DNA of 64,000 bases, from contig JAPLYL010000002.1 of assembly GCA_026395595.1 (NCBI GenBank), positions 44,874 to 108,873 of the forward strand. Reading direction: 5' to 3'. The notes beneath the pieces were generated by a model, which did no database searches, had not been told where the DNA came from, and was given only the letters and a program-made list of their open reading frames with translations. The stretch's first letter is position 1, and each line of letters opens with the position of its first letter. Both the position numbers and the translations under genes were made by a program. Below are positions 21,458 to 25,810 of this stretch, piece by piece. The stretch comes from Candidatus Parcubacteria bacterium. Its GTDB lineage: Bacteria; Patescibacteriota; Minisyncoccia; Phycocordibacterales; CAIJYI01.

Positions 21458-23806
21458 TTAAGTCTCTTTATCCATGCTTCCCCAATTCTTCCCTGTTGCC
21501 ACACTGACGATTAACGGAACAGAAAGCTCGCAAGCATTTTCCATCGCCTTTTTAACGACAGGAATAACCGTATCAATATCTTCTTTTTTAATTTCAAAAA
21601 TAAGTTCATCGTGTACCTGTAAAAGCATTCGGGCTTTCTCTCCAGTATTATTTTTTAAAACTTCGTTATGCGCTTGTATCATCGCCAGCTTCATAATATC
21701 CGCGGCTGTTCCTTGTAACGGCGCATTCATCGCCATACGCTCCGCCATCGCTTTTACGTACGGAATATGGGATTCAAGCCCGGGGAAATATCTTCTTCGT
21801 CCAAACAAGGTTTCCGTATACCCCAGTTTAACGGCATCTTTTTTCACTTTTTCAAAATATGAAGCAATTTTCGGGAATTTCTCAAAGTAATTTTTATGGA
21901 ATTCTTCCGCTTCCGCCCGCGTTCCGCCGAGGTTTTTCTGAAGCGTCGTTATACCCATGCCATAAATAATGCCAAAGTTGATGACCTTCGCTCTTCTTCT
22001 CATATCTTTCGTAACATCGCTTTCGGAAACACCGAATACATGCATAGCAACAGCCGAGTGAATATCTTTTCCCTCTCGGAAAGTTTCTATCATTATTTCA
22101 TCATCTGAAAGAGCGGCGAGTACGCGCATTTCTATTTGAGAATAGTCCAAAGAAGCAAAAGTATATCCATCTTCCGCAACAAAAGCATTTCGTACCGCAA
22201 TACCGTATCCGGCGTGAGTCGGTATATTCTGCAAGTTCGGATTATTGGAAGACATGCGTCCGGTCGTTGTCCCTGTCTGAATAAAAGTCGTATGTAAACG
22301 CCCGTCTTCACCGACCATATCCGGAATGTTATCAATATACGTAGAAAGAAGTTTTTGCAGTTCGCGGTACTCCAATATCTCGGCGATTATCGGATGCGAA
22401 TCCGCCAATTTTTCTAATTCTGACTCGCGAGTGGAACGAGCACCACCCGCCGTCTTTTTCAATCCTTTTGCCGTCAAGTTCAGCTTATCAAAAAGGATTT
22501 CACCCAGCTGTTTTGGAGAATTGATATTAAATGCTTCGCCTGCCATTTCATAAATCTTTTTCTCATGGATTTCCGCTCGTTTGTGATATTCCACCGATAA
22601 ATTCTTGAGATATTCCACATCAACGCGAATGCCATTCTTTTCCATCTCATCAATAATGGGAACCAAAGGAAGCTCTATTTCCTCATATACTTTTTTCAAC
22701 CCGCGAGCAGAAAGTTCTTCAAAGATAAACTTTTTCGCTTCTCTAAAACTATTTTTATGGGAAAATTCAAGCATATCTTCCAGATTAGGATTCGTCAGTT
22801 CTGAATTCAAAAGCCAAAGCGCAATGCCGGCTTCTTTCAATTCTTTTGCCGGCACGTCTTCCTCTTCCTCTTTTTCTTCAGCAACCTCGCTTCCCTCTCC
22901 GAAAATTTCAGGAAGGCGCGCGCGAAGCGTGCGAAATTCCAAATCGTAGAGTATTTTCTCCGCCGCTTCATGGTCTATCATATCTCCCCATTTTTTCTTC
23001 GGAAGTTCAAAGTTTATTTTCGCATCACGACGAATAGTCGCCAGTGCTTTGGAAAAAAGCGCTTCTTCCTCTCCTTCTTTGAGTAAATTTATTACGCGCG
23101 GTTTAATCCCTTCTTTTTCAAAAGCACCCTCATCTTTCTTTAATTTTTTATAAATGTTTTCAATGGAACCGAACGCTTGTATAAGCATGGTCGCGCTTTT
23201 TTCGCCGATACCGACAATTCCCGGGATATTATCCGACTTATCACCCGCCAAACCTTTATAGTCCGTCAAAAATTCCGGCTTAAAACCATACCGTTCAAAA
23301 ACCGCTTTCTCATCATACAAAACCGTATCGTTTATCCCCTTTCTGAGCGTGTACACCTGTACGGCTTTATCATCAACCAACTGCAAAGTATCCATATCGC
23401 CTGATGCGATTATGACATCCACGCCCCCCATCTTTTTCACTTCTTCCGAAATAGTACCGATCATATCGTCAGCTTCAAAACCGGGAAGTTCAAAACGCGG
23501 GATCCCGAAAGCATCAAGCACATCGCGAGAGCGGATAATTTGCGCGATAAGCGAGTCATCAGTCTTCGCGCGTCCCGCTTTGTATTCTTTATATTCTTTA
23601 TGCCGAAAAGTTTCTTCAGGAAGGTCGTACGCCGCCACGATATAGTCCGGATGCAGATCTTTCGCCATCTTAAAAAGCAGCGCCATAAGCCCATACAAAG
23701 CCCCCGTCGGCTCGCCCTTCGTAGAAACAAAATCCGGCAAAGCATGATACCCCCGATGCAATATCGCGTGCATATCCAGCAAAACCAATTTTTCTCGTTT
23801 TTTCAT
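21458..23806 (-). CDS. polA: DNA polymerase I (5'-3' exonuclease plus polymerase domains; 3'-5' exonuclease region reduced)
   Basis: N-terminal 5'-nuclease region (KLVLLDMHAILHRGYHAL). Polymerase motifs DYSQIEMRVLAALS, RRRAKVINFGIIYGM and LQVHDELIFE. 782 aa. Confidence 0.9.
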   Translation of the reverse strand: MKKREKLVLLDMHAILHRGYHALPDFVSTKGEPTGALYGLMALLFKMAKDLHPDYIVAAYDLPEETFRHKEYKEYKAGRAKTDDSLIAQIIRSRDVLDAFGIPRFELPGFEADDMIGTISEEVKKMGGVDVIIASGDMDTLQLVDDKAVQVYTLRKGINDTVLYDEKAVFERYGFKPEFLTDYKGLAGDKSDNIPGIVGIGEKSATMLIQAFGSIENIYKKLKKDEGAFEKEGIKPRVINLLKEGEEEALFSKALATIRRDAKINFELPKKKWGDMIDHEAAEKILYDLEFRTLRARLPEIFGEGSEVAEEKEEEEDVPAKELKEAGIALWLLNSELTNPNLEDMLEFSHKNSFREAKKFIFEELSARGLKKVYEEIELPLVPIIDEMEKNGIRVDVEYLKNLSVEYHKRAEIHEKKIYEMAGEAFNINSPKQLGEILFDKLNLTAKGLKKTAGGARSTRESELEKLADSHPIIAEILEYRELQKLLSTYIDNIPDMVGEDGRLHTTFIQTGTTTGRMSSNNPNLQNIPTHAGYGIAVRNAFVAEDGYTFASLDYSQIEMRVLAALSDDEIMIETFREGKDIHSAVAMHVFGVSESDVTKDMRRRAKVINFGIIYGMGITTLQKNLGGTRAEAEEFHKNYFEKFPKIASYFEKVKKDAVKLGYTETLFGRRRYFPGLESHIPYVKAMAERMAMNAPLQGTAADIMKLAMIQAHNEVLKNNTGEKARMLLQVHDELIFEIKKEDIDTVIPVVKKAMENACELSVPLIVSVATGKNWGSMDKET

Positions 23807-23838
23807 ATCACTATAATATCATAAAATCGTGTTCCATA
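23773..23838. repeat. 66-bp perfect direct repeat, copy 1 (polA start codon plus 34 nt of CDS plus 32 nt of promoter)
   Basis: Identical to 25745-25810. The homology extends about 12 nt further with mismatches. Confidence 0.75.
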
Positions 23839-24021
23839 CCGATTTTCGATTTTTGAAGGGCGTTCATCGGCTGGTAAACATGTGACCCTTGTTTATGTTT
23901 TTGTATTACAAAAATGACCGGAGACTCTTTGAGGAAAGAGGTATTTCACTCCGGCATGCGGAGCATTCATACAAAAAAAAACCCAGCTGATAGTCGCTGA
24001 GCTTTTATTGAGAGAAGAGGG

Positions 24022-24825
24022 CTAATGGTAGTCGGTCAACCGCCATGTTGCGGGGACGACTATTCGATGATCGCAGTCAATCCAACTGCATTTTTCATGT
24101 ATTCCACGATAAACACAAAGTTTAAGTTTCCTGTCTTTTTTTGGAATGACCTTCCCGCCAAGTTCGTAAATATCTTTTTGAATAAAAGCGCGGAAGAATT
24201 CCTCTTTTCCGTCTATTGCTTCAAGAAAAAGAAAATAGTAACCGTGTCCGTCTTCCTCAAACCACTCAGGGTTTTCAATACAGAATTGTTCGATTTGTTT
24301 TTGAGAATTCCACATCAAATTTTTCGGATTGGTGTTAAAAAGAAGAAACGGGTCGCAATAAATGCGTTCGTTTTTGTCCATTCCCCATACTTCCGCCTCT
24401 GTTTCTTTTGTTTGAACTTGCGGTGTATCCAATCCCCACTCTTTCAGACTGTAATCCAAGTAACCGGTAAAGGTCTTTTCAGTAAAGGCAAGGGAGGCTT
24501 CTTTTCCTCCGACACAGGCTGAAATCTTTGGTTTTTTGTCTTTCGATAGTAAATGCAGATGGAGTGTTTCCGGAATTTTATCAATATCCTTTTCTGTAAA
24601 ATTATTTTTAATGATATCTTGAAGCGCTGATACGACAGCGCTTGGGTTGAGAGAACTTCCATTTTTCGCGTACAGAAGCTCTTCAATCGCTTTTAGCTGA
24701 ACCTTGATAAAGGTATTACAAGGATCAACAGCATATTTTGCAGGTTTTTTCATAACCCACCTCTTGTTTTTAAGTTGTAAAATAGCAAATACTTCTATCT
24801 GAGATAGAGCATAGCAGATTGTCAT
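24022..24825 (-). CDS. Hypothetical protein (inside the repeat-bracketed insert)
   Basis: 267 aa. The start may be Met25 (MKKPAKY). Family not recognised. Confidence 0.45.
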   Translation of the reverse strand: MTICYALSQIEVFAILQLKNKRWVMKKPAKYAVDPCNTFIKVQLKAIEELLYAKNGSSLNPSAVVSALQDIIKNNFTEKDIDKIPETLHLHLLSKDKKPKISACVGGKEASLAFTEKTFTGYLDYSLKEWGLDTPQVQTKETEAEVWGMDKNERIYCDPFLLFNTNPKNLMWNSQKQIEQFCIENPEWFEEDGHGYYFLFLEAIDGKEEFFRAFIQKDIYELGGKVIPKKDRKLKLCVYRGIHEKCSWIDCDHRIVVPATWRLTDYH

Positions 24826-24942
24826 AAAAATGTCAAGTTATATACGACATAAATATCCATACAGATATTATTAAAAGTATGATAACGTCTAATTTTGTGG
24901 AAATAATTTGACACAATTTATCGTCGGGTATATACTGTATTT

Positions 24943-25713
24943 ATGAAAAATGAACAAATGACAAGCGCTTTAAAAAATGTCGGGCTATCCGATCGCGAGG
25001 TGGGTGTATATCTTACGCTTTTAAGCCTTGGAAATGGAACGGTTTCACAGATAACACGCAAGGCGGGCATCAATCGCACGACTGGTTACGATATTCTTGA
25101 CTCGCTTTTATCGAAAGGTCTTATTTCCATGTCCGGAAAAGAGCCGAAACAGGAATATATTGCCGAACCTCCGGAAAAAATAACTGCCTATTTAAAACAG
25201 GAAATCGAAAAAGACAAGGAAAGGCTTCTTTTTGCGGAAAAATTAGTACCTGAATTGGAAACTTTACACAATGTCACCGGTAGACCGAGTGTGCGTTTTT
25301 ATGAAGACACTGAGGGCCTCAAACAGGTGTATGAAGACACTCTTACCTCTCATGAACCGATTCGCGCATATGCAACAGTCGAAGATATGCACAAAGGTTT
25401 ACCGAATTATTTTCCTGAATACTACAAACGCCGTGCAAAAAAAGGGATTGCTATCCGTGCGATTGTTCCGAATACTGAAACAGGAAAAGAACGTGCTTTG
25501 CAAGATGCAAAAGAAAAGCGAGAAACCGCGCTTGTTCCCGCTGAGGCCTATTATTTTCACCCCGAGATTAATATTTACGACAATAAAGTGATGATTGCTT
25601 CATGGCGCGAAAAACTCGGAATTATTATTGAAAGCGCAGAGATCGCCGATGCTATGAAAAAGATATACGAACTCGCATGGGCAGAGGCTAAACGGCTAGA
25701 TAAAAATATTTAG
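24943..25713 (+). CDS. TrmB-family transcriptional regulator (N-terminal winged helix-turn-helix plus C-terminal TrmB-like domain)
   Basis: The N-terminus LSDREVGVYLTLLSLGNGTVSQITRKAGINRTTGYDILDSLLSKGLI is a winged helix-turn-helix of the TrmB type. 256 aa. Confidence 0.65.
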   Translation: MKNEQMTSALKNVGLSDREVGVYLTLLSLGNGTVSQITRKAGINRTTGYDILDSLLSKGLISMSGKEPKQEYIAEPPEKITAYLKQEIEKDKERLLFAEKLVPELETLHNVTGRPSVRFYEDTEGLKQVYEDTLTSHEPIRAYATVEDMHKGLPNYFPEYYKRRAKKGIAIRAIVPNTETGKERALQDAKEKRETALVPAEAYYFHPEINIYDNKVMIASWREKLGIIIESAEIADAMKKIYELAWAEAKRLDKNI

Positions 25714-25744
25714 CGGTTATTTTCGTTACAAAGTATCGCGTGCC

Positions 25745-25810
25745 TATCCAGCAAAACCAATTTTTCTCGTTTTTTCATATCACTATAATATCATAAAATC
25801 GTGTTCCATA
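25745..25810. repeat. 66-bp perfect direct repeat, copy 2 (displaced duplicate of the polA promoter and 5' end, encoding a 22-aa remnant MKKREKLVLLDRHAILCNENNR)
   Basis: Identical to 23773-23838. The flanking CDS-like sequence diverges after about 12 nt. Confidence 0.75.

What the first reader, a model, noticed from the sequence alone, without database searches (positions are those of the whole stretch)
23773..25810. 1.9-kb insertion bracketed by a perfect 66-bp direct repeat of the polA promoter and first 11 codons
23773-23838 and 25745-25810 are identical. Each contains the polA ATG, 34 nt of CDS, and 32 nt of upstream sequence including TATTAT/TATAGT -10-like boxes. The homology continues about 12 nt further into CDS-like sequence with mismatches, so copy 2 is a displaced, decaying polA 5' end. 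It would encode the 22-aa peptide MKKREKLVLLDRHAILCNENNR. The bracketed segment carries a TrmB-family regulator and a hypothetical gene. This looks like site-specific or homology-driven integration of foreign DNA at the polA 5' end, with the element supplying a replacement gene start. Together with the truncated serine recombinase and the RHS locus it marks the left end of the accessory island.
Basis: seen in the sequence. Interest (0 to 1): 0.7.

Follow-up and report, generated by a model that had tools for sequence, protein, structure and literature searches.

The report
Duplicated polA start brackets small insertion
In this uncultured Parcubacteria genome, a 1.9-kb piece of DNA carrying a conserved regulator gene and an orphan gene sits just in front of the DNA polymerase I gene, flanked by two copies of that gene's promoter and first 15 codons; it is a real but fairly ordinary recombination scar, not a new kind of mobile element.

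Summary
Window 23773-23838 and 25745-25810 are identical (66 nt), and the repeat extends to 77 nt with one mismatch (23762-23838 / 25734-25810). It is the longest exact repeat in the window.

Each copy holds a conserved extended -10 box (TGATATTAT) 6 nt before the polA ATG, plus 15 codons.

The closest genome, L003 (Ca. Nomurabacteria MAG, polA 94% aa), has the uninterrupted site: tsaE, terminator, X, polA. None of 79 related polA loci has this duplication.

The bracketed 1,895 bp carry:
- an intact TrmB-like regulator that is highly conserved across CPR bacteria;
- an orphan gene whose only homologue is a DGR variable protein.

The insert has no recombinase and no terminal inverted repeats. 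Its composition matches the host core. Both repeat copies share all six differences from L003, so resident sequence was duplicated and no foreign gene start was supplied.

The best explanation is a recent Campbell-type single crossover of a small circular DNA through about 77 nt of homology, which left polA intact. Integrated and excised states cannot be told apart without reads.

Separately, a 16-kb RHS/recombinase island lies between tsaE and copy 2. It has its own diverged 58-nt terminator duplication.

Interest is low to moderate.

The parts
23762..23838 (-). X1: the functional copy of the repeat, holding the polA promoter, ATG (23806-23804) and first 15 codons, continuous with the rest of polA
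   Evidence: Homology to L003 starts exactly at 23838.
25734..25810 (-). X2: the displaced copy of the repeat. It is continuous with the ancestral upstream spacer but cut off from polA after codon 15-16, and carries a Met12-to-Arg change.
23813..23821 (-). Extended -10 box TGATATTAT, 6 nt before the polA ATG (leaderless-type promoter). The same box occurs in X2 at 25785-25793.
   Evidence: Box and 6-nt spacing are conserved in L003, L005 and L014. A -10-like hexamer lies 5-7 nt before the ATG at 9 of 41 gene starts, against 2.3% of all ATGs. Function is inferred.
21458..23806 (-). polA, 782 aa (5'-3' exonuclease plus family A polymerase), intact
   Evidence: Pfam; 94% aa identity to L003.
23839..25733 (.). 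Insert B, 1,895 bp, absent from the closest relative and from all other related polA loci
   Evidence: composition matches the core.
24022..24753 (-). hyp243, an orphan gene. Its only non-self homologue (45% identity) is the variable protein of a diversity-generating retroelement.
   Evidence: No template repeat was found in the window.
23977..24006 (-). Intrinsic terminator after hyp243, lying between hyp243 and X1
24943..25713 (+). TrmB-family winged-helix regulator, 256 aa, full length, convergent with X2. Its own TTGACA-17-TATACT promoter ends 6 nt before its ATG.
25710..25778 (-). 22-codon pseudo-ORF started by X2; it overlaps the TrmB stop codon
25814..25871 (-). T2: the ancestral tsaE-polA spacer with its terminator hairpin, contiguous with X2. 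It now follows the 471-aa island gene.
   Evidence: 87% identical to L003 7898-7968; folds as a hairpin with a U tail.
41899..41955 (-). T1: a diverged second copy (76%) of the same terminator region, directly after the tsaE stop codon
   Evidence: Local alignment score 44 against a shuffle maximum of 25; hairpin fold.
25878..41898 (.). Island A, about 16 kb: a 471-aa unknown protein, an N-terminally truncated large serine recombinase (27438-28565), an SpvB/TcdB/RHS giant protein and two orphan RHS tips. It is a separate, older insertion.
41958..42431 (-). tsaE (PF02367), the gene that sits immediately upstream of polA in L003; tsaE precedes polA in nearly all relatives, though many have 0.4-3 kb of variable DNA between them

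Best explanation
The repeat is a genuine, recent duplication of the resident polA start region, here called X. X holds an extended -10 promoter, a leaderless-type ATG and 15 codons, 77-80 nt in all. It brackets a lineage-specific 1,895-bp insertion, here called B. The most likely origin is Campbell-type integration. A 1,972-bp circular DNA consisting of B plus one copy of X underwent a single crossover with the chromosomal X, using host homologous recombination. A single crossover of this kind necessarily leaves T2-X2-B-X1-polA. X2 keeps the ancestral upstream context, X1 keeps the intact gene, and polA stays expressed from the promoter inside X1, downstream of the hyp243 terminator. B encodes nothing that could move it, looks native in composition, and carries the conserved CPR TrmB-like regulator. 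It is therefore better read as relocated DNA from within the lineage than as a foreign mobile element. Shown: the repeat, the empty site, the resident origin of both copies, and the lack of mobility genes. Inferred: the circular intermediate, the recombination pathway, and promoter activity.
For: The repeat is real and the longest in the window. The empty site T-X-polA is contiguous in L003, and the breakpoints fall exactly at the repeat edges. No polA 5' duplication occurs in 79 related loci, so the state is derived. Both copies share 6 of 6 lineage-specific differences from L003, and only 1 of 77 positions differs between the copies, so the event is recent and duplicated resident sequence. 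The sequence upstream of X1 is unrelated to the ancestral spacer (p=0.16), and the sequence downstream of X2 is unrelated to polA. This gives clean insert boundaries, as expected for a single crossover through a defined homology block. There is no recombinase or transposase and no terminal inverted repeats. Insert composition matches the core. The 66 identical nucleotides exceed the 25-30 nt usually quoted as the minimum for RecA-dependent exchange (my own knowledge, not tested here). As a precedent, in E. coli single crossovers of circular molecules carrying short homology gave insertions flanked by 109-950-bp duplications of the homologous segment (PMC3240628). Support for the promoter reading: the conserved TGnTATTAT box with fixed 6-nt spacing, the genome-wide enrichment of that layout, and the terminator between hyp243 and X1.
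Against: No circular form, donor locus or second copy of B was seen. How a circle came to hold exactly X is unexplained; it would need an earlier state with B next to X, or an illegitimate circularisation. The 77-nt homology is short for efficient RecA exchange. Nothing separates host recombination from a trans-acting site-specific enzyme. Only 64 kb of the genome and no reads were available.
Confidence: 0.5

Rival explanations
1. B is a small site-specific integrative element that lacks its own integrase (CIME-like). X is its att identity segment, and a recombinase encoded elsewhere catalyses integration and excision.
For: Direct repeats of 66-77 nt bracket the insert and an empty site exists. 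The tsaE-polA spacer is a hot spot with different cargo in relatives. A recombinase remnant lies 1.6 kb away. Identity segments of 50-110 bp are known for some integrative elements (my own knowledge).
Against: The only nearby recombinase is an N-terminally truncated serine recombinase, a class that does not create long direct repeats. No other copy of B or of a polA-start duplication occurs in 79 polA loci or 86 TrmB loci, nor in IMG/VR, PLSDB or INPHARED. hyp243 has one homologue among 5.8 billion proteins. B looks native in composition.
Confidence: 0.15
2. The duplication arose without a circular intermediate. Either a staggered double-strand break was repaired with fill-in of about 77-nt overhangs around captured DNA, or a replication template switch copied B from another locus and returned 77 nt upstream (duplication-insertion).
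For: Both copies are resident-type and the boundaries are sharp. B is native in composition, and TrmB lies in quite different contexts in relatives, so it may have been copied or moved from elsewhere in this genome.
Against: No second copy of TrmB or hyp243 is in the window, and each protein is on record on a single NCBI contig. Other indels between the window and L003, and in the relatives, show no long flanking duplications, so this is not a general habit of the lineage. No microhomology could be assessed because the donor is unknown.
Confidence: 0.15
3. Assembly mis-threading. The true molecules are an uninterrupted chromosome (T2-X-polA) plus a separate 1,972-bp circle or a strain variant that shares X, and the assembler joined them through the repeat.
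For: A k=31 assembly of SRR20698640 breaks exactly inside X. The graph is identical for the integrated and the circle-plus-chromosome solutions. Only one sample contains this strain.
Against: X (66-77 nt) is shorter than ordinary reads, so it is normally spanned directly. The copy-specific variant 11 nt outside the perfect core gives the assembler a handle. The deposited contig is 189 kb and threads both copies. Even this solution needs a circle that carries the polA start, so the biology hardly changes.
Confidence: 0.1
4. X-B-X is ancestral, and the relatives lost B by recombination between the two X copies.
For: Recombination between flanking repeats restores a perfect empty site, so loss leaves no scar.
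Against: Independent losses, or one early loss, would be needed across L003, L004, L005, L006, L007, L014 and 73 further loci. The copies differ at 1 of 77 positions, while this lineage differs from L003 at 6 of 66 positions in the same stretch. TrmB is never next to polA in 86 other loci.
Confidence: 0.05

Closest known systems
Campbell-type (single-crossover) insertion-duplication of circular DNA carrying a short homologous segment
   Same: The insert is flanked by a direct duplication of resident sequence and the target gene stays intact. The duplication length equals the homology block. No element-encoded enzyme is needed. In the experimental precedent the duplications were 109-950 bp (PMC3240628).
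   Different: This is a natural event in an uncultured CPR bacterium, and the homology block is only 77 nt. The circle and its origin were not observed.
Integrase-less att-flanked elements (CIMEs) and genomic islets at gene ends
   Same: Direct repeats overlap a gene end, an empty site exists in relatives, the insert lies in a hot spot beside another island, and it has no recombinase of its own.
   Different: No cognate integrase-bearing partner was found. The unit is not seen anywhere else. The repeat covers a promoter and 5' end rather than a tRNA or a gene's 3' end. Both copies are resident-type.
Prophages and elements that integrate into a coding gene and carry a replacement end (for example e14 and phage 21 in icd; my own knowledge)
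   Same: A partial duplicate of the target gene end sits at one junction, so the gene stays functional.
   Different: Those elements encode an integrase and carry a diverged, element-derived 3' end. Here the duplicated piece is the 5' end plus promoter, identical to the resident copy, and no integrase is present.
Transposon target-site duplications
   Same: Direct repeats of target sequence lie on both sides of an insertion.
   Different: The repeat is 77 nt rather than 2-15 nt, and there is no transposase and no terminal inverted repeats.

Membership tests
Site-specific integrative element (genomic island / IME / prophage) | Recombinase (tyrosine or serine integrase) encoded within the element | tested here: not met
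   Pfam and PHROGs found none in 23839-25733. The only recombinase nearby (27438-28565) lies outside the bracket and lacks its catalytic domain.
Site-specific integrative element (genomic island / IME / prophage) | Flanking direct repeats (attL/attR) and an empty site in relatives | tested here: met
Site-specific integrative element (genomic island / IME / prophage) | The same element recurs in other genomes or sites | tested here: not met
   hyp243 has one distant homologue in an unrelated context. None of 79 polA loci and 86 TrmB loci shows the unit or the duplication. No hits in IMG/VR, PLSDB or INPHARED.
Site-specific integrative element (genomic island / IME / prophage) | Excised circular form and regenerated attB in the population | not testable with these tools
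   This needs read mapping of SRR20698640. The Logan k=31 contigs break inside the repeat.
Transposon / insertion sequence | Transposase, terminal inverted repeats and a short target-site duplication | tested here: not met
   No transposase domain. The alignment of the insert ends scores at chance level (p=0.15). The repeat is 77 nt.
Campbell-type single-crossover insertion-duplication | Direct duplication of resident sequence at both junctions, with clean loss of homology outside it | tested here: met
   Both copies share 6 of 6 lineage-specific states. The outer flanks are unrelated.
Campbell-type single-crossover insertion-duplication | Circular intermediate that carries one copy of the homology | not testable with these tools
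   No reads available, and no separate circle is on record.
TrmB family transcriptional regulator (PF01978), gene 24943-25713 | N-terminal TrmB winged-helix domain above the Pfam cutoff, and a full-length protein | tested here: met
   56.8 bits against a cutoff of 25.6. It aligns end to end with homologues.
DGR variable (target) protein, gene 24022-24753 | C-terminal variable repeat paired with a template repeat that differs at adenines, plus RT/Avd nearby | tested here: not met
   The homologue in L083 has VR/TR, bAvd and RT. The window has no template repeat for this gene and none of the ORFs scanned showed an RT (not all window ORFs were scanned). So it is family kinship only.
Large serine recombinase, gene 27438-28565 | Resolvase catalytic domain plus Recombinase and zinc-ribbon domains | tested here: not met
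   Only the Recombinase (from profile position 21) and Zn_ribbon_recom domains are present. The PHROG integrase profile is matched from position 280 of 651.

The most novel reading that the evidence does not exclude
B plus one X is a reversible, roughly 2-kb minimal integrative circle with no recognisable recombinase. It uses the polA leaderless promoter and start as its attachment site. Its integration places a second active polA promoter (X2) that fires antisense into the conserved CPR TrmB-like regulator, so that insertion and excision would switch regulator expression.
Probability: 0.07. Interest if true: 0.55.

Novelty: new member of a known kind. Interest (0 to 1): 0.28.

Why it matters
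It is a clean natural example, in a reduced CPR genome, of gene relocation that keeps an essential gene working by duplicating its complete leaderless promoter and start. It shows that the tsaE-polA spacer is a recurrent insertion hot spot in Paceibacteria. It also leaves an orphan promoter pointing antisense into a highly conserved regulator. It does not reveal a new mobile element or enzyme. Its practical value is as an annotation and assembly caveat, and as a site where excision or integration could be checked cheaply in the reads.

Tried and rejected
- Extended, decayed homology beyond the repeat, which would suggest an attP-like diverged copy. The shared 9-mer upstream of both copies is at chance level.
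- The 3 nt (CTT) beyond the 77 nt that match L003. That codon varies among relatives, so this is uninformative.
- Recurrence of a polA-start duplication in relatives: none in 79 loci.
- TrmB as a mobile cassette. Bracketing repeats in L135, L141 and L142 turned out to be the 3' ends of paralogous Zn-ribbon genes, not insertion scars.
- A single 18-kb composite insertion (A + T2X2 + B). T1/T2 are 24% diverged while X1/X2 differ by about 1%, which indicates two events at different times.
- A genome-wide repeated terminator as the cause of the T1/T2 similarity: the motif occurs nowhere else in the window.
- Rfam families in the insert or in the spacers: none.
- A template repeat for hyp243 in the window: none.
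- AlphaFold model of hyp243: pLDDT 42, unusable, so no fold search was run.
- Exact 23-mer of X in JGI metagenomes and IMG/VR: no match.
- hyp243 and TrmB in IMG/VR, and B in PLSDB and INPHARED: nothing.
- Exact-protein look-ups for polA and the lyase gene: not on record.
- Long flanking duplications at other indels in L003, L004, L005 and L006: none.

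
Full report
**Observation**

Window 23762-23838 and 25734-25810 form a 77-nt direct repeat with one mismatch (23772 A / 25744 C). The inner 66 nt (23773-23838 = 25745-25810) are identical, and the start-to-start spacing is 1,972 nt. It is the longest exact direct repeat in the 64-kb window; the next longest are 49 nt or less, inside RHS paralogues.

polA is 21458..23806 on the minus strand. 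It carries 5'-3' exonuclease and family A polymerase domains. I call the repeat X. Each copy holds 32 nt upstream of the ATG, the ATG itself and 15 codons. Copy 2 (X2) encodes MKKREKLVLLDRHAILCNENNR*.

Between the copies lie two genes:
- a 243-aa gene with no family match (24022..24753, minus strand);
- a 256-aa TrmB-family gene (24943..25713, plus strand).

**Source organism and the ancestral locus**

The two insert proteins are on record as MCX6735647/8 from a 189-kb contig of a Candidatus Parcubacteria MAG. A genome scan with polA returned 80 Patescibacteria loci. The closest is L003, a Ca. Nomurabacteria MAG with 94% aa identity in polA.

In L003, and in nearly all the other loci, the gene before polA is the homologue of window 41958..42431. 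That gene is tsaE (PF02367). blastn of L003 against the window gives three colinear blocks:
- L003 7319-7834 matches window 42467-41952 (tsaE).
- L003 7898-8048 matches window 25877-25731 (87%).
- L003 7969-10345 matches window 23838-21465 (polA).

So the L003 sequence "terminator spacer (T), then X, then polA" is contiguous. In the window it is split. T2 plus X2 sit at 25877-25731, and X1 plus polA start at 23838. Homology of the X1 side to L003 begins exactly at the repeat edge. Homology of the X2 side ends at 25731-25734.

None of the 79 related loci has any duplication of its polA start. The arrangement is therefore derived in this lineage.

**Two separate insertions, not one**

Relative to L003 the window has two insertions:
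- Insert B, 23839-25733 (1,895 bp), bracketed by X.
- Island A, about 25878-41898 (16 kb), between tsaE and T2.

Island A holds a 471-aa unknown protein, a serine recombinase that lacks its catalytic domain, a small membrane protein, two orphan RHS tips and a 2,862-aa SpvB/TcdB/RHS protein.

Island A has its own flanking repeat. T1 (41899-41955), directly after the tsaE stop, and T2 (25814-25871) align over 58 columns at 76% (score 44; the best of 500 shuffles was 25). Both fold as terminator hairpins with U tails. The motif occurs nowhere else in the window.

T1 and T2 are 24% diverged, while X1 and X2 differ at 1 of 77 positions. The two events therefore have very different ages, which argues against a single composite insertion. 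The end of T1 and the start of X1 abut in ancestral coordinates. This spot is also the only place where an insertion leaves both the tsaE terminator and the polA promoter intact, so selection can explain the coincidence.

**What X is**

In polA orientation X reads TATGGAACACGATTTTATGATATTATAGTGAT-ATG... The box TGATATTAT (an extended -10) ends 6 nt before the ATG. The TGnTATTAT box and the 6-nt spacing are conserved in L003, L005 and L014, and L007 has TACCAT at the same spacing.

In a crude gene set from the window, 9 of 41 starts have a -10-like hexamer 5-7 nt before the ATG. These include TrmB itself (TTGACA-17-TATACT, then 6 nt, then ATG). Only 2.3% of all ATGs show this, and only 4 of the 41 starts have a Shine-Dalgarno-like motif.

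I infer that X contains a complete leaderless-type promoter plus the start codon. A predicted intrinsic terminator follows hyp243 (24006-23977). polA must therefore be transcribed from X1. X2 is probably an orphan promoter firing antisense into the 3' end of TrmB. None of this is shown experimentally.

**Origin of the two copies**

Within the 66-nt core both copies differ from L003 at the same six positions. Both are therefore resident-type sequence, and the insert did not bring a foreign replacement start.

The single difference between the copies (Met12 to Arg in X2) is derived in the non-functional copy, because L003 and X1 agree at that position. Three further nucleotides after X2 (CTT) match L003, but that Leu codon varies among relatives, so the extension cannot be relied on.

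Outside the repeat the flanks are unrelated. The sequence upstream of X1 against the ancestral spacer scores at chance level (p=0.16). The sequence downstream of X2 against polA scores below the shuffle mean.

**What the insert carries**

The TrmB-like protein is full length. It belongs to a very strongly conserved CPR family: 2,267 homologues, about 70% identity across classes, best non-self hit 85%.

In relatives TrmB sits in varied core contexts, often beside a 550-590-aa Zn-ribbon protein and a ComM-like gene. Across 86 other TrmB loci none has polA, tsaE or hyp243 within about 4 kb. The few direct repeats that bracket TrmB there are the 3' ends of paralogous Zn-ribbon genes, not insertion scars.

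hyp243 has one non-self homologue among 5.8 billion proteins (45% identity). That homologue is the target gene of a complete diversity-generating retroelement: a VR/TR pair whose mismatches all fall at template adenines, plus bAvd and an RT. The window holds no template repeat for hyp243. An AlphaFold model was unusable (pLDDT 42).

Other findings on B:
- It has no recombinase or transposase domain.
- It has no terminal inverted repeats.
- It has no Rfam match.
- It has no similarity to IMG/VR, PLSDB or INPHARED records.
- Its 3-mer composition is closer to the core genome than 93% of core windows, while island A is clearly deviant.

**Mechanism**

The geometry is: ancestral upstream, then X2, then insert, then X1, then ancestral downstream. 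The boundaries are sharp and both copies are resident-type. This is exactly what a single crossover produces between the chromosome and a circular DNA that carries one X.

Experimentally, such crossovers in E. coli produced insertions flanked by 109-950-bp duplications of the homologous segment (PMC3240628).

I therefore favour Campbell-type integration of a 1,972-bp circle by host recombination (confidence 0.5). The weak point is the origin of a circle holding exactly X. A plausible route is an earlier arrangement with B directly upstream of X, followed by circularisation of a fragment that ended at polA codon 15-16. This route is inferred only.

The rivals are:
- a trans-mobilised, integrase-less att-flanked element (0.15);
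- a staggered-break or template-switch duplication-insertion (0.15);
- mis-threading of a chromosome plus a separate circle by the assembler (0.10);
- an ancestral arrangement later lost in relatives (0.05).

The Logan k=31 contigs of SRR20698640 break inside X. They confirm both junctions but cannot discriminate between these solutions. The strain was found in that one run only, and an exact 23-mer of X is absent from the JGI metagenomes.

**Verdict**

The parts that do not hold are "foreign", "site-specific" and "element-supplied gene start".

This is a recent recombination scar of a known general kind in a CPR genome. Modest points of interest are a fully duplicated leaderless promoter, an orphan promoter antisense to a conserved regulator, and a tsaE-polA insertion hot spot. 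Interest is about 0.28.

Noticed in passing
window 41899-41955 and 25814-25871: The 16-kb RHS/recombinase island is itself bracketed by a diverged (76%) 58-nt direct repeat of the tsaE terminator region. Both copies fold as terminators. The T1/T2 divergence exceeds the window-L003 divergence, so the event is either old or involved a diverged homology block.
   Followed up: partly
window 24022-24753; locus L083 351-1067, 927-1049, 1376-1498, 1514-1834: The orphan gene in the insert is homologous (45%) to the variable protein of a complete DGR in a Logan contig. That DGR has a VR/TR pair with all mismatches at template adenines, plus bAvd and an RT N-terminus. No template repeat was found in this window, and none of the ORFs scanned showed an RT (not all window ORFs were scanned).
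   Followed up: partly
window 57297-57445 and 61388-61536 (partial 13565-13594): Two 89%-identical copies of a 149-nt AT-rich element fold into one long hairpin (z = -6.7 and -3.6). It is MITE-like or a structured intergenic element. Rfam gives no match at gathering threshold.
   Followed up: partly
window 21365-21462; also about 9916-10014, 48559, 49987-50074, 54748: A recurrent intergenic palindrome built from AAAAAGC/GCTTTTT-rich arms forms a near-perfect hairpin of about 30 bp directly after polA (z = -10). It is probably a family of bidirectional terminators or repeat elements.
   Followed up: partly
L004 4416-6325; L006 2559-3361; L003 7835-7968; L005 2202-2627: The tsaE-polA spacer is variable in relatives. 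L004 has a 418-aa protein plus a 136-aa protein that looks MazF/PemK-like by eye. L006 has a homologous 138-aa protein. L003 and L005 share a conserved spacer element of about 110 nt with no Rfam match, and the window lacks its first 56 nt or so.
   Followed up: partly
window 27438-28565: A large serine recombinase lacks its N-terminal catalytic domain (the Recombinase domain is matched from profile position 21; the PHROG integrase from 280 of 651). It abuts the start of the 471-aa unknown gene.
   Followed up: partly
window 28931-41787: An RHS/Tc-toxin-like locus: a 2,862-aa SpvB-TcdB-RHS protein followed by two orphan RHS C-terminal cassettes. The core segments of about 300 nt are repeated (30093, 32133, 34307) at 72-86% identity. 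This is the usual displaced-tip architecture, which seems unusual for a small CPR genome (my impression; not checked).
   Followed up: no
window, 41 crude gene starts: A -10-like hexamer lies 5-7 nt (mostly 6) before the ATG at 9 of 41 starts, against 2.3% of all ATGs. Only 4 of 41 starts have a Shine-Dalgarno-like motif. This suggests widespread leaderless transcripts in this organism.
   Followed up: partly
L135 1383-1554 and 4387-4558; L141, L142: In several CPR metagenome contigs the TrmB-like gene is flanked by two paralogous 550-590-aa Zn-ribbon proteins. In L135 their last 68 coding nt plus 104 nt downstream are 97.7% identical although the gene bodies have diverged, which suggests gene conversion.
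   Followed up: partly
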